Source: Escherichia phage CR01. From it: DNA of 45,236 nucleotides. The DNA is taken from sequence record OR061068. One strand, given 5' to 3'. Positions within the stretch are counted from its first letter, which is position 1. Each line of letters opens with the position of its first letter. A program made the position numbers and the translations under genes. Below, piece by piece: positions 433 to 43,112 of this stretch. The notes under the pieces are model-generated. The model made no database searches. It was not told the DNA's origin and saw only the letters and a list, made by a program, of their open reading frames with translations.

Positions 433-819
433 ATGAATCTTAAAGCAACTGTCGTAGCAGGAGCATGTTTCATCATCCTGGCTTACGCACACGGCATCTA
501 CCAGTACCGCGCTGGTTGGGGCGAAGGCCGCGCTAATCTCGTTTCGCAGCAACAGCAGAAAGCACAGGCTGAGTTAGCGAAGAAAACACAACGGCAGCAG
601 CAGGATGAATCAAAGGCAGCCGCCGCTGACAACGAAGGCAAGACGAAATCAGAGGTAATTACCCGTGAAGTCGTTAAGTACATTAAAACGCCTGGTCGCA
701 GCGTGTGCACTTTTGACGATGCTCGCGTCCTGCTCAAGTCCCGCGCCGTCGCCAACGCCAATTCCATCTCCGGATACGACGATGATGCAGCCACCGTGCA
801 AACTGGCCACGCCAAGTAG
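433..819 (+). CDS. i-spanin (Rz-like inner membrane spanin)
   Basis: 128 aa; N-terminal TM segment, Q/A/K-rich coiled-coil periplasmic region; contains an embedded out-of-frame lipoprotein ORF. Confidence 0.6.
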   Translation: MNLKATVVAGACFIILAYAHGIYQYRAGWGEGRANLVSQQQQKAQAELAKKTQRQQQDESKAAAADNEGKTKSEVITREVVKYIKTPGRSVCTFDDARVLLKSRAVANANSISGYDDDAATVQTGHAK

Positions 820-928
820 CGATGCTGACCAGGACTTAGCTATTGACGTTCAGAACGCCGAATGCGTGCGGCAACTGCGTCTGAAAGTGTTCATGTTGCA
901 GGACTACGTGAGGAATATTCTGGAATAG
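665..928 (+). CDS. o-spanin (Rz1-like outer membrane lipoprotein), overlapping and extending beyond Rz
   Basis: Signal peptide MKSLSTLKRLVAACALLTMLAS followed by lipobox Cys (LASC) and a Pro-rich mature region; starts in a different frame inside the i-spanin gene. Confidence 0.55.
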   Translation: MKSLSTLKRLVAACALLTMLASCSSPAPSPTPIPSPDTTMMQPPCKLATPSSDADQDLAIDVQNAECVRQLRLKVFMLQDYVRNILE

Positions 929-5640: not shown

Positions 5641-6053
5641 TGGGCTACTTTGAGGACTTAACCAAAGCGTTTGATGTGCCGCTGGTAGCCTTCGGAACAA
5701 CCAACGGCATCAAGGTGGCGCTTGAAAACATCGACGCGCCGACGTCAACCGATACACCGTATCTGGCGAGTTACATGTTGCTGGCAGATACGGAACAGGC
5801 TGACTTATTCTTCACCGAGCAACGTTCTGGTATTTATCAGGTCGACATTAACTACGCATCGGTGAAAGGTAGCGCGCCAATCAATAAAATGGCAGACTTA
5901 CTTAACACGGCGTTTAAAGCAGGTAAGTCATTTTCACGTAACGACATCTGCGCCGAGGTTCAATCGGTTAGCCTGGGGCCACTGATTGTAGAAAACGGAT
6001 GGGCCAAAAGACCATTGTCAATTAACTTTATCGCATTCACCAAGAGGCTGTGA
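5640..6053 (+). CDS. putative tail terminator protein
   Basis: 137 aa ORF immediately upstream of the major tail gene; start overlaps the preceding stop. Confidence 0.35.
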   Translation: MGYFEDLTKAFDVPLVAFGTTNGIKVALENIDAPTSTDTPYLASYMLLADTEQADLFFTEQRSGIYQVDINYASVKGSAPINKMADLLNTAFKAGKSFSRNDICAEVQSVSLGPLIVENGWAKRPLSINFIAFTKRL

Positions 6054-7222
6054 ATATGGCTACAACTCCTTTTAAGGGCGCGAATACCGCGCAATTCTAT
6101 GTGGCGGAAGTCACCCCGGGCGTAACACCGACTAACCCGGTCTGGTCACCGTTGCGTAACACTGGCGGTGTTCCTGCTATCACCCGCGACACGCTGACCT
6201 CCAACGAACTGGACGGCAGCCGTGAAACTACATCCATCCGCACCGGTAACAAACAGGTTAGCGGTGAATACGCGATCGAGCTTAGCTCGAAAAGCCAGGA
6301 TGACTGGCTGGCTGGTGCTTTAGGCTCTACGTGGCAATCCGGTGTTTCCCTGTCCAGTCTGTCGATTACCGTCGCACCCGCAGGCAAGACGTTCACACGC
6401 GCTACCGGCAGTTTTATCACTGACGGAGTTGGGGTAGGCGACCTGATTGCATTTACCGATTTAACAGGCGATAACGCAAAACCATTTATTGTTACTGCAG
6501 TAACGGCTACGGTTGTTACTGGTGCTGGCATCCAACACACCCTGACCACCGAGACAAAAACTAGTAAGGCTAAAACCGGCGACACGCTGGAAACCGGTAA
6601 CACGTGTAAGACGTTCTCTATCCTTACCTGGTACAAAGGCCAGTGCGGCGGTACTAACGCGTACACGTTAACCAAAGGCGTGGAAGTTTCTGGTTTTACC
6701 ATCGAACAGGCTGTTAACGCGATGGTAACTGGCAGCTTCCCATTCATCGGTCGCAGTCAGGAGATTCTCACTACGCCGCCGACCGGTTCCAACTTCTCAT
6801 CTGTTACTTTTGGTGATGAGCCGTTCTCCTCGGTTGACGTTTCTGTGTTCGACGGTTCTACGCCGTTGCGTTGTGATAGCCTGACCATCACCAACGATAA
6901 CAGCGCGTCGGCGCAGTTCGAACTCGGCAACACTAACGTAGCGTTTGTGGAGCGTAGCCGCGCGGCTAACACCTTCTCCATCTCCGGTAAGCTGTACGAC
7001 ATGGCGATGATTCAGAAGTTTATCAACGAACAGCAGGTAGAGATTAACTCTATTCTGGCGGGGGTAAACGGGGCTATGTCTTTCAGTTTAAAACGCGCAG
7101 AGCTTACGGCGGTCACACCAGAGATTGGCGGACCCGAGTCAATCACTCAGTCCATTGAAGGCCAGGCTACCGGCAACCAATACCAGTCGTCTATTGTCAT
7201 CCAGCGTATCACCTACCCATAA
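6050..7222 (+). CDS. putative major tail (tube) protein
   Basis: 390 aa Thr/Gly/Ser-rich protein positioned before the tail chaperone and tape measure genes; followed by a strong terminator. Confidence 0.5.
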   Translation: MNMATTPFKGANTAQFYVAEVTPGVTPTNPVWSPLRNTGGVPAITRDTLTSNELDGSRETTSIRTGNKQVSGEYAIELSSKSQDDWLAGALGSTWQSGVSLSSLSITVAPAGKTFTRATGSFITDGVGVGDLIAFTDLTGDNAKPFIVTAVTATVVTGAGIQHTLTTETKTSKAKTGDTLETGNTCKTFSILTWYKGQCGGTNAYTLTKGVEVSGFTIEQAVNAMVTGSFPFIGRSQEILTTPPTGSNFSSVTFGDEPFSSVDVSVFDGSTPLRCDSLTITNDNSASAQFELGNTNVAFVERSRAANTFSISGKLYDMAMIQKFINEQQVEINSILAGVNGAMSFSLKRAELTAVTPEIGGPESITQSIEGQATGNQYQSSIVIQRITYP

Positions 7223-7225
7223 AAC

Positions 7226-7252
7226 TAAGGCCCCGAAAGGGCCTTTTTCTTA
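7226..7252. terminator. bidirectional rho-independent terminator
   Basis: AAGGCCCCGAAAGGGCCTTTTTC: GC hairpin flanked by A-run upstream and T-run downstream; lies between convergent genes 6050..7222 (+) and 7250..7804 (-). Confidence 0.65.
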
Positions 7253-7804
7253 CAAACCTAATTTTAAAGCAATGTCTATAACGTTCGATTTAACATCACC
7301 TGGTATGATGTAGGTATCGTAATCTTTTACACCATCAACGCCATACAGATAACCACGGCTGTCCCCCTCAAATGTATAGCCTTCTCGGTGCAAGCGAACG
7401 ATTCTTACATCATGACCCGCGGCGACGATAGGGGCTACTTCACTGGCGAATCCACCGTCGGACACTACAAAAACTTCGTTGCCGTCTGGCAAGTTTTCAG
7501 CAAGATACTTACCGAAATAATCATCACCGAATACCGGTTTAATGAATTGCTCAGAAACGGCAATCATGAACTGACGACGGGACAACCCATTAAGAAAACC
7601 CTCTGGCTTTTCTTTCCGTGCCCGGTCGTCGTAGCCGTCGAGAAATTCGCGGTAAGCATCCGGGCCTAACGCTGCCAAAGCAATATCGAACATTGGATTC
7701 TTGAAACTGGTAGTTCCTTTCGCAAAGCCCATTTCTACCAGCGCCATAGCAAGTGTGTCTTTCCCGCAACCCGCCGGACCATTAAGAATAATTACCTTAG
7801 CCAT
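7250..7804 (-). CDS. P-loop kinase, dNMP kinase-like (T4 gp1-like) or polynucleotide kinase-like
   Basis: 184 aa; Walker A GPAGCGKDT at residues 8-16; downstream RRQFMIAV and VFVVSDGG...VRIVRLHREG segments resemble the T4 gp1 family as recalled; start overlaps the upstream stop (TAATG). Confidence 0.5.
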   Translation of the reverse strand: MAKVIILNGPAGCGKDTLAMALVEMGFAKGTTSFKNPMFDIALAALGPDAYREFLDGYDDRARKEKPEGFLNGLSRRQFMIAVSEQFIKPVFGDDYFGKYLAENLPDGNEVFVVSDGGFASEVAPIVAAGHDVRIVRLHREGYTFEGDSRGYLYGVDGVKDYDTYIIPGDVKSNVIDIALKLGL

Positions 7805-8289
7805 TATTTATCACTCCCGTGTGATTTTAAGTGTGTAGAGTTACCGTTACAGTCGTATCCAGTGACAGCGTGTGTGGTTATGCCGAGGCCTCGGAAATGC
7901 TTAATTACCGCCGGAGAATCATCGAATGCACACAAGATTCTCTCCAGCCCGATAGCACGCAACACCTCTTCTTTAATTGCGATGTCTTTTCTGTTGTCGT
8001 GTTTGCTGCGCATGATTAGCTGATAAAATTCGACGCGGTGGCGCTGCAACCACATTCTGGTTTCTTTTTCTGCATCATCACTACGGCCCGTTAAAATAAT
8101 AACGGCGTAGCGACGATTGAGGGCGTTACACAGTTCGATGTTATCTCTAATTGGTTCATCATCTTTGCACGCCATGTTAAAGGGCTTCCACGCCCACGTT
8201 TCGTTGTAGTTATCTTTCGGCAGCAGGTGCAAACGATGCGTACCATCAGCCAATGTCCCATCTAAATCGAAAATTACAATATCTTTCAT
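7804..8289 (-). CDS. HAD-superfamily phosphatase, T4 Pnk 3'-phosphatase-like
   Basis: 161 aa; motif I FDLDGTLA (DxDGT), motif II ILTGRSDD, RKD lysine motif, motif IV AFDDSP; order and spacing match the phosphatase domain of T4 polynucleotide kinase as recalled. Confidence 0.55.
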   Translation of the reverse strand: MKDIVIFDLDGTLADGTHRLHLLPKDNYNETWAWKPFNMACKDDEPIRDNIELCNALNRRYAVIILTGRSDDAEKETRMWLQRHRVEFYQLIMRSKHDNRKDIAIKEEVLRAIGLERILCAFDDSPAVIKHFRGLGITTHAVTGYDCNGNSTHLKSHGSDK

Positions 8290-9035
8290 CCCAGCATCTC
8301 CGGTGAAATAGTTAAACGTGCGACCTCGCCGTATTCGGCGCTATAAGTAATTACATTTGCACTACGGCCTGACATCCATCCGCCGCGGGAGGCGTAGGCA
8401 TCTTTAGCCGCCAGGGTGCGGTGTTGCTCAACAATCATGTTACGGCTTTCTACAATCTTTTGATGGTGGAGATGCCCGACATGTGCGTAACTGTACTCGC
8501 TTTCGCCAAATGCTTTTCTGAACTTAGCTATCATAATTGGCTCGACCACCTCAAACCGGCATTTATGCCCGTGTGTAAAGAACAGCGTCGTTTTGCCGTG
8601 TTGCACCATCTTGTAAACATCCGGCGACGTATCGACGAACACACGAGGCTCGTTGTCGTATAGCGTACTGAACATCTCAGCCAACCAAATCATACCTGAT
8701 TCGTCATGGTTCCCTTGCACGATAAGCAGGCGAACATTTTTATGTTTAACCAGAGCCATATCGACAACACGGCGGACCATACGAATCATGTAGCGGACCA
8801 GTTTCTGATAGCGCGTATCCGCGTCAAGAACATGACCACTCGCTGGCGTAACGGCATCCAGACTATCAAAGTGCGCGAAGTCACCAAGAAGGTTAATAAC
8901 CCCTGTTCCCGCATCTGGCGCTTTCTGAAACGCAGCATCAAACCACCGAGAGAACAGGTCTTCTGCAATCTTCATATCCCAGTCATCGCCGCTCTCGTCG
9001 GCCCATGCCAGCATACCGAGATGGAAATCAGACAC
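8286..9035 (-). CDS. calcineurin-like metallophosphoesterase (Mre11/SbcD-like), probably the C-terminal part of a fusion with the upstream HTH ORF
   Basis: Motifs SDFHLG (DxH), GDFAHFD, GNHDE, THGH, GHLHH in canonical order; annotated start is GTG with no beta-strand before the DxH motif, while the upstream frame is open. Confidence 0.6.
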   Translation of the reverse strand: MSDFHLGMLAWADESGDDWDMKIAEDLFSRWFDAAFQKAPDAGTGVINLLGDFAHFDSLDAVTPASGHVLDADTRYQKLVRYMIRMVRRVVDMALVKHKNVRLLIVQGNHDESGMIWLAEMFSTLYDNEPRVFVDTSPDVYKMVQHGKTTLFFTHGHKCRFEVVEPIMIAKFRKAFGESEYSYAHVGHLHHQKIVESRNMIVEQHRTLAAKDAYASRGGWMSGRSANVITYSAEYGEVARLTISPEMLG

Positions 9036-9412
9036 AGTGTAAAGGTTGAGTAGCTTGTCGTCTCGTTTGGTGCGAACGGCTTTAACAGGAGCAACGGGGT
9101 AATCTCCGACTTCATGCCCTCGATTACGGCCTTCATTAACTCGACCTGACGTTCCGCATCGGTGTCGGTCTTAACCCATTGCAGTTTAGTGTTGCCTAAC
9201 TCGTCCACAAGTGACGATGTTCCTTTAATCTTGTAGCCATCTGGCACAAGGTGGCTAACGTCCCGCCCGTGGCCTACGCCTTTCTTAGCCAGCTTCGCTT
9301 TACGGATGCGAATAACGCGGTCTGAGATGCCGTATTTACGGGCGATGTCGATATTCTTCATACCGGCGTTCAATTCTTCCTGTAACTGTTCGTCGGTTAT
9401 TTTCTTCCGGGC
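8972..9412 (-). CDS. HTH DNA-binding protein (N-terminal part of a probable HTH-metallophosphoesterase fusion)
   Basis: ATG 9412 with ribosome-binding site GAGGAAG; HTH-like DEQLQEELNAGMKNIDIARKYGISDRVIRIRKAK; the C-terminal 20 residues look non-native; adding one C at C-run ~9096-9099 joins this frame to the phosphoesterase. Confidence 0.45.
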   Translation of the reverse strand, partial: ARKKITDEQLQEELNAGMKNIDIARKYGISDRVIRIRKAKLAKKGVGHGRDVSHLVPDGYKIKGTSSLVDELGNTKLQWVKTDTDAERQVELMKAVIEGMKSEITPLLLLKPFAPNETTSYSTFTLCLISISVCWHGPTRAAMTGI

Positions 9413-9480
9413 CATGCTTACTTCCTCGTGTTTAGGATTTGTCCTATTTAACCACAGTGCATTCATTTAAATAAAGGCGA

Positions 9481-9807
9481 CTATTTACTTTCCGCGCCTA
9501 TCGCCCACCCGGTCATCACCATTTGCAGGCGGGTGGCTGTCAGTAGGCTGTAAAACGCGTCTCCGTTTTTCTCTACCGAACGTATTACAGAGTATGTTAC
9601 GGCTTGCGGAGGCAGGCCCGATTTACCAACCCCTACGGCAGCCTCACACTCGCGAACGGTAGAGTCCTTAAATGCCTTTACAATAGTAGGGTCGGCTTTA
9701 TCGAGCACACCAGAAGTCATAAGAACAGATTCACTAAATACCTGTTCGCACGGGGACCCAAAAGCAGCAAAAGACATAAACCCCAGAGCTAATACTAATT
9801 TACGCAT
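9481..9807 (-). CDS. small secreted/periplasmic protein (108 aa), first gene of the moron operon
   Basis: N-terminal signal peptide MRKLVLALGFMSFAAFG; gene sits immediately downstream of a conserved early promoter cassette. Confidence 0.5.
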   Translation of the reverse strand: MRKLVLALGFMSFAAFGSPCEQVFSESVLMTSGVLDKADPTIVKAFKDSTVRECEAAVGVGKSGLPPQAVTYSVIRSVEKNGDAFYSLLTATRLQMVMTGWAIGAESK

Positions 9808-9870
9808 AATTATTTCCTCAGTAAGTTACAGGTGAATAGTACCCTATTATATTGGGGTGCGCAAGTAGTG
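9808..9870 (-). promoter_or_regulatory. conserved early promoter/operator cassette driving the moron operon
   Basis: Reverse complement CTTGCGCACCCCAATATAATAGGGTACTATTCACC...GAGGAAATAATT-ATG; near-identical to the copies at 62-115 and 43428-43495. Confidence 0.5.
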
Positions 9871-9971
9871 TGTTAGAATAAGTTTGCGCCTAGTGTCGCA
9901 CACGAAAAGCGGGTGGTTCCCGTCTGGCGCGTCAACCTTAACTTGTAACCTCTTAACCAAAGGATTAAATA

Positions 9972-10388
9972 ATGAAACTCTCTGATTTTTATTTTGCGGA
10001 CCGCCATGCTGCTGGCACTAAAATGCCCATCCTTCTGCCTAGCGGTAAAGATTCCGGTGAATGGTTGCAAGTCATCGGCCCTGATTGTGACGCTGGCGTT
10101 CGTGCTGGCCGTGCCTATACAACGGCAATTCGACGCCTTACGGAAGAACTTGCGCCGTTAGATAAAGAGTGCGAGGCACTGAATAACTGGGCGCGCTATA
10201 ACGATGAGAAGGGCTGGCGGGTGATGGACTTGAACAAGCAGCTTGCCGTTGAAATCGTCACCGGTTGGTCGTTCGACGAACCTTTCAGCAAAGAGGCACT
10301 GGCTAACCTGTTCGACCAGTACAGTGGGCTGGCGGAGGCCGTAGTTAAGCATCACACCGACAGTCGCGAGAAACTCTCGGAAAAGTAA
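9972..10388 (+). CDS. tail assembly chaperone (lambda G-like)
   Basis: 138 aa ORF immediately upstream of the tape measure gene; ends at a GAAAAG slip site with an open -1 frame downstream. Confidence 0.55.
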   Translation: MKLSDFYFADRHAAGTKMPILLPSGKDSGEWLQVIGPDCDAGVRAGRAYTTAIRRLTEELAPLDKECEALNNWARYNDEKGWRVMDLNKQLAVEIVTGWSFDEPFSKEALANLFDQYSGLAEAVVKHHTDSREKLSEK

Positions 10389-10750
10389 AAGCGCTGTATG
10401 AATTTGCGCAATGGTGCTTTGTCGACCGCCACAAACGTAAGCAATTCGACGACATAGCGGCAGGCCACCAGGCGGCTTTGATTGCAATGGGCGTGATTAA
10501 AGAACCGCAGATGAAAGAAGCGACGGGGCCTGAATGCCCCGTTTCTCTTATCGACGTGTTCGAGAAATACCGCGCCATTAAATTCCTACAGCGCGAAACA
10601 GATGATACTATCGTCATAATCCCGCGCGATGCGCTCAAATGGCAAGATTTGGTAGCGTTTCGTGATGTCGCCGGTTACGGCATAAGTTTGTTCGAAGCCG
10701 AGGTTATCATGGGCTTAGACGGAATATTTGAGGGCAGAGAAGATGGCTGA
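10379..10750 (+). CDS. T-extension of the tail assembly chaperone (G-T product via -1 frameshift)
   Basis: The -1 frame is open from 10349 through 10750 with no start codon until 10478; overlaps the G stop; conserved G/GT arrangement before tape measure genes. Confidence 0.45.
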   Translation, partial: GKVKALYEFAQWCFVDRHKRKQFDDIAAGHQAALIAMGVIKEPQMKEATGPECPVSLIDVFEKYRAIKFLQRETDDTIVIIPRDALKWQDLVAFRDVAGYGISLFEAEVIMGLDGIFEGREDG

Positions 10751-13054
10751 TACGGCTTCCCTAATTGCCAGAGTAAAAACAGAAGGCGCCGACGTAGCCG
10801 CCAAACAGCTTGACGCTATGGCGGCATCCGCAGACCGGGCGGATACCGCGGTAAACAAGCTGACTCCGGATGTCAATAAAGTTAACACAGCTACCTCTAA
10901 AGCAGCCTCTGACGGTTTCGCTAAGTTCCGTAACGCCGCCGGGCAGGTGGGCTTCCAGGTACAGGACATGGTTGTCCAGTTGCAGTCCGGCACGTCTGCA
11001 TTCGTAGCAATCGGGCAACAAGGCTCGCAGCTTGCAGGTGCTTTCGGCCCCGGTGGCGCGGTGCTCGGGGCTGTAATTGCTCTTGCGTCTGCTGTTGGCG
11101 GCGTCCTGTACAAATCGCTAACCGAAGCCGAAGGTAGTTCAAAAGACCTCGAAACCGCACAGAAACAGTTAAAAGATACTTTCCAGCAAACGGCATCTGG
11201 CTCTCTCGAACTGACAGACGGCCTCATCCAGCTTACCCAAATAAGCCGAGAAGCGGCAGAGACTCAGCTTGCTCTGGCTAAGGCTAACGCGGACCTTATC
11301 GCGCAGCAAACAGCTAAAGCTGTTCGTGAGGACGCAGAATCATGGGAAACGTGGAAAGCCTCCACGGCGTCGGCGATTAGCCAGTACGATGCACTGGTCT
11401 CTAAGGGTGCGGATGTAGGCGACACGTTAGAAAAACTAGGCGGCACTTACGAGGGTAACATCGTAGGCGTCAACATGCTGGCGCAGAATATCGCGGAGCT
11501 TAGCAGTAAGTTCGGGGTTAACCGTGACCAGGCGCTGGAGATGATAGCGGCGCAGAGCGCGTTTAACAAAGAGCCAACCGCGGAGAATGCCCGCCGCATC
11601 GCCGATGTGTTTACCGACTGGCTGGGTAACACAAAACAGTTGAACCCGGAGCTTATCCGCCTCACCGATAATGCCAACAAGAACGCCACGGCACTGGAAA
11701 ACGCAGAGAAGTCAGCAAACGCGGCGGCAGAGGCCCAAAAGAATCTTGGTCGTAACGTCAACTCAACCACGCAGAGATTCCAGGAACAGAACGAAGCTAT
11801 CGTCAAGAATCAGCAAATTGCCATCTTAAGCGACCGTGAGCGCATCAGGGCGCAAGCTGAGATGGATAAACAAGCGTTCGCTAAACGTGAAGCTGTCACC
11901 AAAGAACAGATCGCCGCGTATAATGCCGCTCGTGACACGGAAGCACAGCAAGACATCGCCCGCATCGACGCTACCGAAAAAGCGAAGGCAGACCGTGAGG
12001 CTAAATCGAACGAGAAACGTCTGGCGGCGCAGGCCAAACGTGAAGAAACGGCGGCACAACGCCAGAAGAAAGCTGCGGAAGATTTCCTCGCTACGGTTGA
12101 CCGTACAACCGGAGATGAAATTTCTCGCATCACGGCGGCCGAAGAGCAGAAACTGGCGAAACTTGAAGAGTTCAACCGCGCCGGAACGATAAGCCAGCAG
12201 CAGTACGAAAACGCCAAAACTCAGATTATGCTCACAGCTGAGCAGGCCAGACAGGAAGAACTGGATAAGAAAAGAAAAGAGCAGCAGGAAAAGCAGCAGA
12301 AAGGCGAGGACTTCATGGCGCAGATTATGGGTCAGAATGCTGCCGAGCTTGAGCTTCTTGACATCCAGGAACAGCAAAAGCTGGCGGTCGCGGATAAGTA
12401 CCGAGAACAGGGGCTTATTAGCGAGAAGCAGTATCAGGCCGCGCTTAACGCCATCAACGAGCAGTACGCCACGAAGCGTGCCGACGCAACGGCAACCGCC
12501 TTCGGTAACATGGCTTCAAACATCGGTTCGGCTTTGGGGAGGCTTCCGGCGCGTACAAGGCATTCGCTATCGTACAGGCCACTATAGCCACATACACAGC
12601 AGCTATTGAGGCTTATAAGTCAACGGCCGCTATCCCTGTAGTTGGCCCGTTCCTGGCCCCCGTAGCCGCTGCCGCTGCCGTTGGGGCGGGTATGGCGCAG
12701 GTTTCCGCTATCCGGTCCGCGCGTGAACAGGGCGGACAGTTATCCGCAGGGCAGGCTTCCACCATCGCTGAACGCGGTAAACCCGAAGTTATCATGCCCG
12801 CTGGCGCATCGCGTGTGCGCACCGCGCAGCAGATGAAAGAAATTATGGGGCAAAACGGGTCTTCTTCCGGCCCGTCTAATGTTACTATCGTAAACAACAC
12901 GAGTTCTCAAATCGGCAACGTATCCACTGAGCAAGATGATGAAGGCCGTCTACGCATCATCATCGAAGAGCAAGTGGCCGCCTCTTTGCAGAACAGTAAC
13001 AGTAAGATTAGCAAGGCCCGCAAGGCCACAAGAAACGCGCCGGGGTTTAAATAA
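10743..13054 (+). CDS. tail tape measure protein, frameshifted at G-run ~12536-12539
   Basis: Long Ala/Gln/Glu-rich coiled-coil ORF 10728..12587; the C-terminal frame 12692..13054 joins if one G is added to GGGG; fused reading gives a hydrophobic Ala/Gly-rich segment. Confidence 0.7.
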
Positions 13055-28634: not shown

Positions 28635-29153
28635 TTATTCTTCTTCGAAATACTTGTTCTTGATTGCCGTCAGGCGCTCCAGGTATTCAGCCAGGTCTTC
28701 GTCTTTAATCGCGGCAATCTTCATCTTCTTACCGGTGAACTCCTCCAGCAGTTCATCGGAATCATCGCACGCAGCATCACTCGGACCTTCATTAATCGCA
28801 TCGTCGATAGCCTGAATCTGGTCACGAAGAGACTGGTAATCGACCTCTTCTTTCTCTTCTTCTGGTTCTGGAGTCGGCTCCTCTACTTTGGCCTTACGCG
28901 GCTTGCGCTTCGGCTTCTCTTCTTCTGCTGGTTTAGTGTCAACGGTGTCTTCACCTTCAACAGGGATTTCTTTTGTTGCTTCTTTCGCAACAGTGGTCTC
29001 GATTGTTGCGGTTTCTGCGACACCACTGTCGACGTCTTTACCATATGGCGCCGTGATAGCCTTCGGCAGTTCGGTACGGCGTGCACTGTTCGCAGCAATC
29101 AGTTCATGCGCAACTACGAAACGTTCCAGTAATTTTAAGAATTGTTCTAACAT
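28635..29153 (-). CDS. hypothetical acidic low-complexity protein (172 aa)
   Basis: Central EEEKPKRKPRKAKVEEPTPEPEEEKEE region. Confidence 0.3.
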   Translation of the reverse strand: MLEQFLKLLERFVVAHELIAANSARRTELPKAITAPYGKDVDSGVAETATIETTVAKEATKEIPVEGEDTVDTKPAEEEKPKRKPRKAKVEEPTPEPEEEKEEVDYQSLRDQIQAIDDAINEGPSDAACDDSDELLEEFTGKKMKIAAIKDEDLAEYLERLTAIKNKYFEEE

Positions 29154-29175
29154 TTGTTTCTCCTGTTTATTTAGG

Positions 29176-29412
29176 TTACTCGCCGTCGCCTTCTGTAAGG
29201 CTATCGTCTATTAATTCAAATTTACCGTTTGAGTGTTGGATAGCTTCTTGCCCGCAATGGTCGCAAACCACCAGTTTATCGAATCCGTCAAACTCGTCCC
29301 CGACTACGCAAGAAAGTACAAATTTATGTTTTGTACATACTTCTTGCGGTTCACCGAAAATTGCCCGGAAACATTTAGCTATAGCTCCTGTGATTATGTT
29401 CATATCTGTCAC
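29176..29412 (-). CDS. hypothetical Cys-containing small protein (78 aa)
   Basis: Five Cys/His positions (C..C..C..C-DHC); ribosome-binding site GAGAGG before ATG; directly downstream of a consensus promoter. Confidence 0.35.
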   Translation of the reverse strand: MTDMNIITGAIAKCFRAIFGEPQEVCTKHKFVLSCVVGDEFDGFDKLVVCDHCGQEAIQHSNGKFELIDDSLTEGDGE

Positions 29413-29525
29413 CTCTCGTTTTGTATGGGCTAACTATAATAGCGAACTATTCACTTGTCAATGGGCTTTTCTAAAATAATTAATATGGTACTATTCACAT
29501 ATCAACTGACTAAGGAGTAATTGAC
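29413..29525. promoter_or_regulatory. divergent promoter region with two operator palindromes
   Basis: Minus direction TTGACA-N17-TATAGT around AATAG-TTCG-CTATT; plus direction a second TACTATTCA copy and ribosome-binding site AAGGAG before ATG 29526. Confidence 0.6.
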
Positions 29526-40386: not shown

Positions 40387-41631
40387 GTATTCAGCTATCC
40401 GCGCCACAGGCACTGTTCCTGAATTGCGATAACAAGTACAAAGCCTATGTCGGCGGCTTCGGTAGCGGCAAGACATTCGTCGGATGTCTCGACCTGCTTA
40501 CGTTTATGCTCAAGCACCCCGGTACGCGCCTGGGCTACTTCGGCCCGACATACCCGGCCATACGTGACATCTTCTACCCGACATTCGAGGAAGCGGCTAA
40601 CCTGCTTGGCCTTGATGTGCTGGTTAAATCCGGCGACAAAGAAGTCGTTGTAACTCGCGGTAAGACTGTGCTCGGGACCGTTATCTGCCGTTCTATGGAT
40701 AACCCCGGCTCGATAGTCGGCTTCAAAATCGCGGCTGCGGTCGTGGATGAGCTGGACGTATTGAGCCGTGAGAAAGCCGAGCTGGCGTGGAACAAAATCG
40801 TAGCCCGCATGCGTCTGGTTATCCCGGGGTAATTAACCACATCTCCGTCACCACGACTCCGGAAGGGTTCAAGTTCGTTTACGCCAAGTTCAAGGAGAAC
40901 CCGACGCCGAGTTACTCAATGGTGCAGGCGTCCACTCACGAGAACGCCAGATTCCTGCCGCCGGATTACATTAGCTCGCTGACTGAGACTTACCCGGCGC
41001 AACTGATTAACGCGTATCTGAACGGTGAGTTTGTCAACCTGACATCCGGAAGCGTGTATTACGCATACGACCGACGCAAGCACCGCAGCAAAGAGACAAT
41101 TCAACCGGGCGACACGCTGTACATCGGGCAGGACTTCAACGTTACGAAGAACGCCAGCGCCGTGTATGTGCAGCGTAAAGATGGATGGCACGCGGTTGCA
41201 GAACTGAAGGGCCTGTTCGATACGCCGGACACCGTGCGCGTAATTACCGAGAAGTGGAAGTCACAAGGCCACCGCATCGTCGTTTACCCCGACGCTAGCG
41301 GCAAGAACCGTAAGACAAACTCGGCGTCAATCTCTGATATTGCATTACTCCAGCAGGCGGGTTTCGATGTTCGCGCTAAATCAGCCAACCCCCGGTTAAA
41401 GACCGCGTTTTAGCCGTGAACACCGCGCTGGAAAAAGGTAAGCTGTGGGTTAATGACCACTTATGTCCTGAGATAGCCAAGACGCTGGAACAGCAGGCAT
41501 ACGACGATAACGGAGAGCCGGCTAAAGACGGCGTCATTGACCATATGGCTGATGCTCTCGGCTATCCTGTAGTTTATGAGATGCCGGTGGTTAAACCAGT
41601 AATCAACATCCCGGTGACTTTCGCACTTTAA
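40383..41631 (+). CDS. terminase large subunit, split by two homopolymer frameshifts
   Basis: Walker A VGGFGSGKTF and Walker B AAVVDELD; three successive frames (40383..40832, 40787..41413, 41416..41631) join when one base is added at G-run ~40826-40829 and C-run ~41388-41392. Confidence 0.75.
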
Positions 41632-41643
41632 GAGGATTATTAA

Positions 41644-43112
41644 ATGTTAACTATGAACGGTCAGAATCAGGGTGTTAAGACAAAACACCGGGAATGGCTG
41701 CATCACTTCGATAAATGGCAGAAGGTGCGCCACGCACTGGAGGGCGACCTTATCCGCTATCTGCGCAACGTCGGGAAGAACGAGCCGGACCCGACCTACG
41801 CGGCACAGCGCCAGGAAGAATACGAGAACGGGGCTATCTGCTATAACTTCACCAAGCGCACCCTGGCGGGGATGGTTGGGTCGGTGATGCGCAAAGACCC
41901 CGAACAGATTATTCCGCCTGAGCTTGAGTACCTGTTACGTAACGCCGACGGTTCTGGTGTCGGGCTGTGGCAGCACGCGCAGGATACTTTGATGGAGATT
42001 GACTCGGTGGGCCGTGGCGGGTTGCTGGTGGACGCCCCGGAGACAGCCGCGGCAACGGCGGCAGAACAGAACGCGGGGCTATTAAACCCGGTCATTGCAT
42101 TCTATACCGCAGAGAACATCATAAACTGGCGACTGACCCGCGTTGGTTCAGTTAACCGTGTGACGATGGTCGTGCTGCGTGAGGTGTGGGAATACTCGGA
42201 ACCGGGCGCAGAGTTCGAAACAAAGTTCGGTGAGCAATACCGCGTTCTCGATTTGATTGATGGTCGCTACCGCCAGCGCATTTACCGCTTCGATGCCGAA
42301 GGTGGTGCGCAGGGTGAAGTAATCGAAATATTCCCTGAACTTGGTGAACAGTTGCGCGGCAAAATCCCGTTCACGTTCATTGGGGCGAGCAACAACGACG
42401 CCACTATAGACGATGCACCTTTGCTGCCGTTGGCTGAGCTCAATATCGGACATTTCCGCAACAGCGCGGACAATGAGGAGTCCAGCTTCGTTGTAGGGCA
42501 GCCCACCCTGTTCATTGCCCCAGGTGAGAACATGAGCATGGAACAGTGGAAAGAGGCCAACCCTCACGGCGTCCGCACGGGGTCGCGTTCAGGCCACAAC
42601 ATTGGTTACGGCGGCAATGCGTTTCTGGTTCAGGCAGGGAGAACAACCTCGCCAAACAGAACATGCTGGATAAAGAGAATCAGGCGATTCAGATTGGTGC
42701 GCAGCTTATCACCCCGACGCAGCAAATCACCGCTGAATCGGCCCGTCTGCAACGTGGTGCTGATACTTCAGTTATGGCAACAATCGCACGTAACGTAAGC
42801 ATGGCGTACACTGATGCGCTGCGCTGGGTGGCTGCGATGCTTGGGCTGCGTGAAGGCACAGAGATTGAGTTCAAGCTGAATATGGAGTTCTTCCTGCAAC
42901 CGATGACCGCTCAGGACCGTGCTCAGTGGATGGCGGATATTAACGCGGGTCTGTTACCGGCTACCGCTTATTATGCTGCGTTGCGCAAGGCAGGTGTAAC
43001 TGACTGGACGGACGAGGACATTCAGAACGCTATTGAGGACGCACCTCTGCCGTTGGGTGCTGTTACTCAGGTGGCTGGAGAGATTCCGCAGTCGGCGCAA
43101 CAACAGGAGTAA
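41644..43112 (+). CDS. portal protein, frameshifted at G-run ~42637-42639
   Basis: Track ORFs 41644..42798 and 42546..43112 join with one added G; position between TerL and the head morphogenesis gene. Confidence 0.6.

What the first reader, a model, noticed from the sequence alone, without database searches (positions are those of the whole stretch)
9481..9807. Secreted small protein as first gene of the moron operon: candidate superinfection-exclusion or envelope factor
The protein has a classical signal peptide and is expressed from the early cassette ahead of cytoplasmic enzymes. Phage-encoded periplasmic or lipoproteins next to tail genes often block the receptor or DNA entry for superinfecting phages (the Cor and Imm-type proteins). 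Co-expression with nucleic-acid enzymes could instead mean it delivers or regulates them at the envelope.
Basis: inference. Interest (0 to 1): 0.4.

Follow-up and report, generated by a model that had tools for sequence, protein, structure and literature searches.

The report
Secreted phage protein in superinfection-immunity slot
This small gene of an E. coli Kagunavirus phage makes an exported, all-helical protein of unknown function, and in sister phages the same genome slot holds a T4 Imm-type superinfection-immunity gene, so it is a good but untested candidate for a new protein family that blocks entry of competing phages.

Summary
Window 9481-9807 (minus strand) is a real 108-aa gene with a strong ribosome-binding site and dN/dS about 0.05 among 11 orthologues. 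It carries a classical signal peptide (MRKLVLALGFMSFAAFG|SPCE) and is the first gene of the leftward cassette between the tail tube and tail assembly chaperone genes of a Kagunavirus (100% identical to phage M01).

The family (phrog_14165) is small, found only in phages, and uncharacterised. It has no Pfam, NCBIfam or PDB relative. A confident AlphaFold model (pLDDT 91) is a five-helix bundle with no PDB match. All 35 relatives keep an export signal (25 signal-peptidase-I type, 10 lipobox) and two invariant cysteines.

The new result concerns the slot. In Kagunavirus and Jerseyvirus genomes that lack this gene, the same slot holds a T4 Imm-family membrane protein (PF14373) under the same conserved upstream region. 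The two genes never occur together. Other relatives carry other small secreted or membrane proteins there.

Cor-type receptor masking and delivery of the neighbouring enzymes are not supported. Early expression is unproven. No experiment exists for any family member. Interest is moderate.

The parts
9481..9807 (-). CDS of the 108-aa precursor (phrog_14165 family); stop codon TAG at 9483-9481
9757..9807 (-). Signal peptide, residues 1-17 (MRKLVLALGFMSFAAFG); predicted signal-peptidase-I cleavage after A-F-G; no lipobox
   Evidence: export signal kept in 35 of 35 relatives
9484..9756 (-). Mature 91-aa periplasmic domain (9.7 kDa, pI 5.3); five-helix bundle in the AlphaFold model (pLDDT 91.3, pTM 0.81)
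9748..9750 (-). Cys20 codon (mature residue 3), invariant in all 31 aligned homologues; inferred disulfide partner of Cys54
9646..9648 (-). Cys54 codon (mature residue 37), invariant; the Cys-Cys spacing is fixed at 34 or 37 residues across the family
9814..9819 (-). Shine-Dalgarno sequence GAGGAA, six bases before the ATG
9846..9851 (-). Perfect -10 hexamer TATAAT, with a weak -35 (AACACA, 9874-9869, spacer 17). The surrounding sequence is conserved in phages carrying this gene and in phages carrying the Imm-type gene
9448..9831 (-). The exchangeable slot: the only segment here without DNA homology to Imm-type Kagunaviruses; conserved sequence lies on both sides
   Evidence: homology to L042 ends at 9447 and resumes at 9832
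8972..9415 (-). Second gene, N-terminal helix-turn-helix part of the 'DNA repair exonuclease' (phrog_704). It is separated from the catalytic part by a frameshift in this window
8286..9035 (-). Metallophosphoesterase part of the same exonuclease gene (one 376-aa ORF in relatives)
7804..8289 (-). PNKP-type HAD phosphatase (PF25109, E 1e-18)
7250..7804 (-). P-loop protein resembling dNMP kinase (phrog_139); last gene of the cassette
7227..7245 (.). Two-way intrinsic terminator between the cassette and the tail tube gene
   Evidence: annotated the same way in phage Sciku
9972..10388 (+). Tail assembly chaperone gene, transcribed in the opposite direction from the slot gene (PF08748)

Best explanation
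What the gene makes. The gene encodes a Sec-exported precursor. Signal peptidase I is predicted to cut it after residue 17. The product would be a soluble 91-residue, all-helical periplasmic protein held by one disulfide between Cys20 and Cys54. These steps are inferred from sequence and from conservation across relatives.

How it is expressed. It is transcribed from a conserved promoter with a perfect -10 hexamer, as the first gene of the leftward accessory cassette inside the tail module. This is also inferred.

What it most likely does. It is one of several mutually exclusive occupants of a precisely bounded slot. In most sister phages that slot holds a T4 Imm-family inner-membrane protein. 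I therefore think it acts as a superinfection-exclusion factor. Once made in the infected cell, it would act from the periplasm on a step after adsorption. That step could be passage of the incoming phage's tape-measure or ejection conduit, or of its DNA, across the periplasm and inner membrane. It could also be a conserved host envelope component needed for that passage.

In logic it would resemble T4 Spackle (a periplasmic, helical, disulfide-bonded protein) and TP-J34 Ltp (an exported helical protein that targets the tape measure protein). It would not resemble the receptor-masking lipoproteins Cor and Llp. The target and the phenotype are inferred, not shown.
For: 1. Export. The signal peptide is kept in 35 of 35 relatives, as a signal-peptidase-I type in 25 and as a lipobox in 10, even though its sequence has diverged.
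2. Disulfide. Two cysteines are among only five invariant columns over 31 sequences, with fixed spacing. This fits a disulfide formed in the periplasm.
3. Slot replacement.
- Sciku_024 and phiWAO78-1 gp27 lie at the same position and match PF14373 Imm_superinfect at E 2.7e-13 and 1.3e-12, above the curated cut-off.
- The phage collection holds 98 records with this protein and 366 with the Imm-type gene. No accession appears in both listed samples.
- About 34 plus about 85 E. coli-type records roughly equal the 116 Kagunavirus-like records found by flanking DNA.
- The window has no Imm-type gene anywhere.
- In 43 IMG/VR loci anchored on the chaperone gene, the slot holds this family in 14, the Imm family in 16, other secreted two-cysteine proteins in 5, other small membrane proteins in 3, nothing or something else in 5, and never both.
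4. Shared regulation. Homology with Imm-type phages stops at 9447 and resumes at 9832. The upstream region with the -10 hexamer is conserved in both types.
5. Independence from the downstream enzymes.
6. Accessory but functional. The gene is absent from most relatives, yet dN/dS is 0.05 where it is present. A 38%-identical allele sits between flanks that are 88-97% identical at the protein level (L002).
7. Precedent for soluble or tethered exported helical exclusion proteins: Spackle (PMC7677548); Ltp and its soluble derivative, and Glo of phage K139 (PMC3952083).
Against: - No experiment exists for any member of the family. Sharing a slot is guilt by position, and moron slots can hold unrelated functions.
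- The Imm-family genes of these siphoviruses are themselves untested.
- There is no sequence or fold similarity to Spackle, Imm, Ltp, Cor or Llp.
- No tail-associated muralytic domain was found by Pfam in this phage's tail proteins, so a Spackle-type target is not evident.
- The allele of this gene does not track the tape-measure type (L002; L028 versus L029). A strictly tape-measure-specific mechanism is therefore not supported by covariation.
- These phages are virulent, so any exclusion would work only during the short infection.
Confidence: 0.45

Rival explanations
1. An envelope modulator that serves the phage's own cycle rather than exclusion. A periplasmic factor might tune lysis timing in the way an antiholin or T4 RI does. 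It might instead protect the infected cell envelope, or inhibit a host periplasmic enzyme such as a murein hydrolase, a protease or Endonuclease I.
For: The protein is exported, small, helical and disulfide-bonded. The alternative occupants of the slot are all envelope proteins. The design resembles small periplasmic regulators such as the periplasmic domain of T4 RI; that comparison is from my own knowledge and was not tested here.
Against: The gene lies far from the lysis genes, which I place at the two ends of the window from the spanin-like ORFs at 433-928 and from the holin, lysozyme and Phage_lysis genes found at the matching position in related contigs. It is replaced by an Imm-family gene rather than by a lysis regulator. 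It has no homology to any known lysis regulator or enzyme inhibitor.
Confidence: 0.2
2. A counter-defence protein. It would neutralise a host or prophage barrier located in the envelope, for example a prophage-encoded exclusion protein or a membrane abortive-infection sensor.
For: The gene is accessory, swappable and found only in phages. Very divergent alleles sit between conserved flanks (L002, 38% identity), which is typical of arms-race genes. No copy was found in 185,579 bacterial genomes.
Against: A protein made after DNA entry cannot rescue entry of its own genome. Within the Kagunavirus clade the gene is under strong purifying selection, not diversifying selection (dN/dS 0.05). It matches no PADLOC model.
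Confidence: 0.13
3. Cor or Llp-type receptor masking. The protein would bind and inactivate an outer-membrane receptor so that related phages cannot adsorb irreversibly.
For: Ten distant family members carry a lipobox with Ser at position +2. By the Lol sorting rule (my own knowledge) this points to an outer-membrane lipoprotein, the location of Llp and Cor.
Against: The window protein and all Kagunavirus and Jerseyvirus members lack a lipobox. Guernseyvirinae recognise capsule or O-antigen through tailspikes, and no protein receptor is known (PMC11990801). Nearly identical alleles (94-96%) occur in K1-capsule phages and in O16-antigen phages. The gene is not next to the receptor-binding genes.
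Confidence: 0.07
4. It delivers or regulates the co-encoded nucleic-acid enzymes at the envelope.
For: Only co-transcription with the phosphoesterase, the phosphatase and the kinase in this window.
Against: Family members sit first in cassettes with none of these enzymes (L004, L005, L007, L009). Imm-type phages keep the same enzymes without this protein. By my reading of their sequences none of these enzymes has an export signal.
Confidence: 0.03
5. The protein is not exported, or the ORF is not functional.
For: No dedicated signal-peptide predictor could be run. The same crude rules also flag several ORFs that I take to be non-coding.
Against: dN/dS is 0.05. There is a strong Shine-Dalgarno sequence. 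Export signals are kept in 35 of 35 relatives, including a switch between signal-peptidase-I sites and lipoboxes, and the cysteine pair is invariant.
Confidence: 0.02

Closest known systems
T4 Spackle (Sp, gp61.3), a periplasmic superinfection-exclusion protein
   Same: Both are encoded by virulent phages and have a cleaved signal peptide. Both mature proteins are small (75 versus 91 residues), form compact all-helical bundles and have one disulfide with a cysteine close to the mature N-terminus (PMC7677548). In T4, Spackle works in the same process as Imm, and an Imm-family gene is the alternative occupant of this slot.
T4 Imm family (Pfam PF14373, phrog_1039)
   Same: It has the same genomic slot, the same conserved upstream region and the same orientation in sister Kagunaviruses and Jerseyviruses. 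The two are mutually exclusive. Both are small and targeted to the envelope.
   Different: Imm-type proteins are 63-aa proteins whose sequence is hydrophobic almost throughout, with no cleaved signal that I could see. This protein is a soluble exported helical domain. It does not match PF14373.
Ltp of Streptococcus phage TP-J34, an exported exclusion lipoprotein that targets the tape measure protein
   Same: Ltp is an exported protein of a siphovirus that blocks DNA injection after adsorption. It exists as a lipid-anchored form, and an engineered soluble form is also active (PMC3952083). The present family likewise has lipobox members and soluble members.
   Different: Ltp comes from a temperate phage of a Gram-positive host and is expressed from the prophage. 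There is no homology or fold match. The allele of the present gene does not co-vary with tape-measure type.
Cor (T1, phi80, N15) and Llp (T5), receptor-masking outer-membrane lipoproteins
   Same: They are small exported phage proteins made during infection that protect against superinfection. Some distant members of the present family have a lipobox.
   Different: This protein has no lipobox. Its phage group has no known protein receptor. It is not adjacent to the receptor-binding genes and matches no Pfam family.

Membership tests
phrog_14165 (uncharacterised phage protein family) | Full-length match to the family profile | tested here: met
   E 5.5e-55, residues 1-108 against profile positions 1-109 of 109. 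Distant members P0035, P0042 and L027 also match.
Sec/signal-peptidase-I secreted protein (general class) | Positively charged n-region, hydrophobic h-region of about 10-15 residues, small residues at -3 and -1, no lipobox | tested here: met
   MRK, then LVLALGFMSFAAF, then A-F-G|S. The features are kept in relatives. A dedicated predictor such as SignalP was not available, and export has not been shown by experiment.
T4 Imm / Imm_superinfect (PF14373) | Match to the Pfam profile; small protein that is hydrophobic almost throughout | tested here: not met
   No Pfam hit at E up to 0.1, or up to 10 over 14 members. No hydrophobic stretch beyond the signal peptide reaches a mean Kyte-Doolittle value of 1.6 over 19 residues.
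T4 Spackle | Sequence or fold similarity to PDB 6X6O, 6XC0 or 6XC1 | tested here: not met
T4 Spackle | Binds and inhibits a tail-associated lysozyme | not testable with these tools
   Pfam found no muralytic domain in the tail proteins of this window. A binding assay would be needed.
Cor / Llp receptor-masking lipoproteins | Lipobox with a lipid-modified cysteine; outer-membrane lipoprotein | tested here: not met
   No [LVI][ASTVI][GAS]C motif is present, and Pro precedes Cys20. Ten distant homologues do have a lipobox.
Cor / Llp receptor-masking lipoproteins | The phage uses an outer-membrane protein receptor that the protein can mask | tested here: not met
   Tested only against the literature. 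Kagunavirus and Jerseyvirus depend on O-antigen or capsule through tailspikes, and no protein receptor is known (PMC11990801).
DUF3718 (the name given to the phage S4lw homologue in GenBank) | Match to the Pfam profile | tested here: not met
   No hit at E up to 10 for the S4lw protein itself or for 7 other relatives, nor for 14 members.
Superinfection exclusion proteins (functional class) | Expression alone reduces infection by the same or related phages at or before DNA entry | not testable with these tools
   Only positional evidence exists: exclusive sharing of the slot with the Imm family.

The most novel reading that the evidence does not exclude
The protein founds a new fold family of periplasmic superinfection-exclusion proteins in virulent, glycan-targeting siphoviruses (Guernseyvirinae). 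It would be functionally interchangeable with T4 Imm-type proteins. It would block genome delivery in the periplasm through a target that is neither a receptor nor a tail lysozyme. The tube/chaperone intergenic slot would be a dedicated exchange site for at least five unrelated exclusion modules, all driven by one conserved promoter.
Probability: 0.4. Interest if true: 0.55.

Novelty: new variant of a known kind. Interest (0 to 1): 0.4.

Why it matters
Exclusion between virulent phages decides which phage wins in mixed infections and in therapeutic cocktails. Kagunaviruses and Jerseyviruses are widely isolated for therapy and biocontrol.

If this family is an exclusion factor, cocktails that mix phages carrying it with phages carrying the Imm-type gene could interfere with one another in predictable ways. 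The target would also reveal a periplasmic step of siphovirus genome delivery that is still poorly understood in phages that depend on surface glycans.

The slot is small and precisely bounded, with one conserved upstream region and interchangeable envelope genes. It is therefore a natural site for engineering and a compact system for comparing exclusion mechanisms. The hypothesis can be tested directly with available BASEL phages: Bas70, Bas71, Bas73 and Bas76 carry this gene.

Tried and rejected
- Sequence searches gave no named relative: Pfam, NCBIfam and PADLOC scans, and phmmer and profile searches of PDB sequences.
- Foldseek against BFVD found only the protein's own K1H orthologue and other uncharacterised phage proteins. 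Mycobacteriophage DUF732 hits were weak (probability 0.4 or less) and I did not rely on them.
- A 744-aa repeat protein in the profile search (P0029) looks to me like a repeat-driven false positive, and I set it aside.
- Profile-profile comparison with the 120-aa secreted slot proteins of the phage FSL SP-031 type gave only 15% probability. Together with a weak phrog_14165 hit (E 0.002) and BFVD matches to unnamed proteins of similar length, I treat them as possible remote relatives, not proven ones.
- Two scans of 185,579 bacterial genomes found no copy. A first attempt with alignment A3 had no usable conserved stretch.
- I considered that the gene co-varies with the tape measure protein. In Kagunavirus it is linked to a chaperone plus tape-measure N-terminal block. 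In Jerseyvirus only the slot gene is swapped, and L002 pairs the same tape measure with a 38%-identical allele. I rejected covariation as evidence.

Full report
**Identity of the window**

The region 9300-10000 is 100% identical to Escherichia phage M01. It is 93-96% identical to many Kagunavirus genomes of the subfamily Guernseyvirinae, including K1H, NTEC3 and BASEL Bas71 and Bas73. The finding lies in a minus-strand cassette (9807 down to 7250). The cassette interrupts the plus-strand tail module between the tube gene (6050-7222) and the tail assembly chaperone gene (9972-10388).

The ORF 9481-9807 (minus strand) encodes 108 residues: MRKLVLALGFMSFAAFGSPCEQ...GWAIGAESK. A GAGGAA ribosome-binding site lies six bases before the ATG.

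It is a real gene:
- It matches phrog_14165 end to end (E 5.5e-55).
- It has homologues down to 23% identity.
- Mean dN/dS is 0.053 among 11 Kagunavirus orthologues, against 0.010 for the chaperone gene and 0.071 for the tube gene.

The N-terminus has the three parts of a Sec signal peptide that signal peptidase I would cut: the charged MRK, a 17-residue uncharged hydrophobic run, and A-F-G|S. There is no lipobox. My crude rules flag 11 of 192 ORFs of at least 60 aa. Of these I take only three to be real genes (my reading): two ORFs I read as spanins (433-819 and 665-928) and this one.

The stronger argument is comparative. All 35 full-length relatives and analogues keep an export signal although its sequence differs. 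Twenty-five have AxA-type sites. Ten have a lipobox (A[VF][LI]G-C-S) followed by a linker and then the conserved domain.

Only five alignment columns are invariant over 31 sequences. Two of them are the cysteines, C20 and C54, whose spacing is fixed at 34 or 37 residues. This fits a disulfide formed in the periplasm.

**What the protein looks like**

The mature domain has 91 residues, 9.7 kDa and pI 5.3. With a 31-sequence alignment, AlphaFold gives a confident model (pLDDT 91.3, pTM 0.81, all five models at 88 or above) with five helices.

No relative could be named:
- Foldseek against PDB gives nothing (best E 2.4).
- Sequence and profile searches of PDB, Pfam and NCBIfam are empty.
- The 'DUF3718' label on the phage S4lw homologue is not reproduced by Pfam, even for that protein.

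The family is tiny. It has 10 representatives among 1.84 billion cluster representatives, one of which is a repeat-driven false positive, and 39 clusters in the larger collection. No copy was found in 185,579 bacterial and archaeal genomes. The two hits that carry Salmonella names come from contigs of 42-43 kb, which is phage size.

**Genomic context is the informative part**

Every distant homologue I located lies in the same place: in the opposite-strand cassette between the tube and chaperone genes, and first or second in it. The rest of that cassette varies. It may hold the phosphoesterase plus other genes, a phiTE_015 protein, or only tiny ORFs. The secreted protein is therefore not tied to the nucleic-acid enzymes.

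In Kagunavirus and Jerseyvirus genomes that lack the gene, the same slot holds a T4 Imm-family protein. Examples are Sciku_024 and phiWAO78-1 gp27, which match PF14373 at E 2.7e-13 and 1.3e-12 and phrog_1039 'immunity to superinfection' at E 1.9e-22.

Counts in the phage collection:
- The secreted protein occurs in 98 records: 64 Salmonella and 34 E. coli-type.
- The Imm-type gene occurs in 366 records: 263 Salmonella and about 85 E. coli-type.
- No accession is shared between the two listed samples.
- The two E. coli-type counts add up to about the 116 Kagunavirus-like records found with flanking DNA.
- The window has no Imm-type gene anywhere.

In an independent sample of 43 IMG/VR loci anchored on the chaperone gene, the slot holds:
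- this family in 14;
- the Imm family in 16;
- other small secreted two-cysteine proteins in 5;
- other small membrane proteins in 3;
- nothing or something else in 5;
- never both genes together.

So 38 of 43 loci have a small envelope-targeted protein as the first gene reading away from the chaperone gene.

The exchange is precise:
- DNA homology between the window and an Imm-type Kagunavirus stops at 9447 and resumes at 9832.
- In Jerseyvirus, L028 (this gene) and L029 (Imm-type) differ by the slot gene alone.
- L002 has a 38%-identical allele. Its replaced segment corresponds to window 9512-9873, and its flanking proteins are 88-97% identical.

The upstream region is conserved in both types, up to about 25 bases before the ATG. 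It includes a perfect -10 hexamer TATAAT (9851-9846) with a weak -35. The alternative genes therefore share their transcription signals.

Baig et al. listed 'tail assembly chaperone' and 'superinfection immunity protein' among the genes that distinguish phage P from phages G and L (PMC5582158). Here P carries the Imm-type gene, and G and L carry the secreted protein. In the papers I read, nobody had commented on the replacement gene.

**Interpretation**

The best-supported reading is an accessory envelope factor, most likely for superinfection exclusion, acting from the periplasm after adsorption. The support comes from three things:
- the exclusive sharing of a promoter and slot with the Imm family;
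- the envelope targeting of nearly all alternative occupants;
- precedents for soluble or lipid-tethered exported helical exclusion proteins. These are T4 Spackle, a 75-residue helical bundle with one disulfide (PMC7677548), TP-J34 Ltp and its soluble derivative that targets the tape measure protein, and Glo of phage K139 (PMC3952083).

Cor- or Llp-type receptor masking is unlikely. This protein is not a lipoprotein. Guernseyvirinae depend on capsule or O-antigen through tailspikes, and no protein receptor is known (PMC11990801). Alleles that are 94-96% identical also occur in K1-capsule phages and in O16-antigen phages.

A Spackle-type mechanism lacks an obvious target, because Pfam finds no muralytic domain in the tail proteins. 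A mechanism strictly specific for the tape measure protein is not supported by covariation.

Rivals that remain are a role in the phage's own lysis or envelope physiology, and counter-defence.

**Timing**

'Early' is unproven. The only temporal transcriptome of a Kagunavirus (K1B4, which carries the Imm-type gene) puts the Imm-type gene in a class with DNA polymerase and methylase genes, not with the structural genes (PMC12645636). That fits a separate promoter. The sampling (5-120 min) is too coarse to settle the question.

**Verdict**

The gene belongs to an uncharacterised, phage-only family with no recognisable fold relative. It sits in what looks like a dedicated exchange slot for small envelope proteins. 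The function is still an inference, but simple plating tests with available phages would settle it. I rate it a new variant of a known kind, of moderate interest.

Noticed in passing
window 9870-9945, with the Rfam match at 9886-9930 (+); L001 6584-6648 (+): The intergenic region between the slot gene and the chaperone gene contains a roughly 50-nt element, GCGCCAGACGGGAACCACCCGCTTTTCGTGTGCGACACTAGGCGC. It is nearly invariant across Kagunavirus and Jerseyvirus. It matches the Rfam int-alpA RNA motif (RF02996): 27.7 bits here, and 35.8 bits in Bas73, exactly the gathering score. RNAalifold finds two compensatory pairs. Its function is unknown. On the minus strand it also resembles a weak terminator.
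   Followed up: partly
window 8286-9415 (-); single-base gaps relative to M01 at 8551, 8559, 8577 and 9096: The phosphoesterase ('DNA repair exonuclease') gene is a single 376-aa ORF in Bas73 and L002. Here it is split into a 147-aa helix-turn-helix part and a 249-aa catalytic part by single-base deletions relative to phage M01. This is either a pseudogene or an assembly error.
   Followed up: partly
window 10728-13054 (+), and other ORFs such as 1010-2762 and 40787-43112: The tape measure gene also looks split (619 aa plus 120 aa, against one 771-aa ORF in relatives). Several head and packaging genes look fragmented as well. This suggests an assembly with many indels rather than real biology.
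   Followed up: no
window 10065-12140 (+): In Kagunavirus a second mosaic block lies next to the slot. It covers most of the chaperone gene, the second chaperone ORF and the first 300 or so codons of the tape measure gene. In phages carrying the Imm-type gene, the chaperone is only about 50% identical and the tape-measure N-terminus shows no detectable similarity. That N-terminus is 85% identical to the Jerseyvirus one.
   Followed up: partly
L004 8001-8366, L005 8001-8372, L007 8001-8360; Hafnia phage TS33 (OR844384) 29072-29422: A subgroup of the family begins MKRIT...[VFI][LI]G-C-SYVG, a lipobox with Ser at +2. These members are probably outer-membrane lipoprotein versions of the same domain. 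The only cultured phage found with a match to this subgroup is Hafnia phage TS33, and I did not check its lipobox.
   Followed up: partly
L039 3472-3834 (Salmonella phage FSL SP-031 type), L026, L038, L055, L057: These phages carry other 107-120-aa secreted two-cysteine proteins in the same slot. The design is the same: a cysteine 2-3 residues after the predicted cleavage site in four of the five loci (12 in L055), a second cysteine 33-39 residues later, and a C-terminal G-[YF]-A-[FY]-G-E in all but L055. Homology cannot be demonstrated (hhalign probability 15%; phrog_14165 E 0.002).
   Followed up: partly
window 433-819 and 665-928 (+): An overlapping pair of ORFs that looks like a spanin pair. 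The first has an N-terminal membrane anchor. The second, partly overlapping it in another frame, has a lipobox (LLTMLAS-C). They were found by the signal-peptide screen and have only a weak Pfam hit.
   Followed up: no
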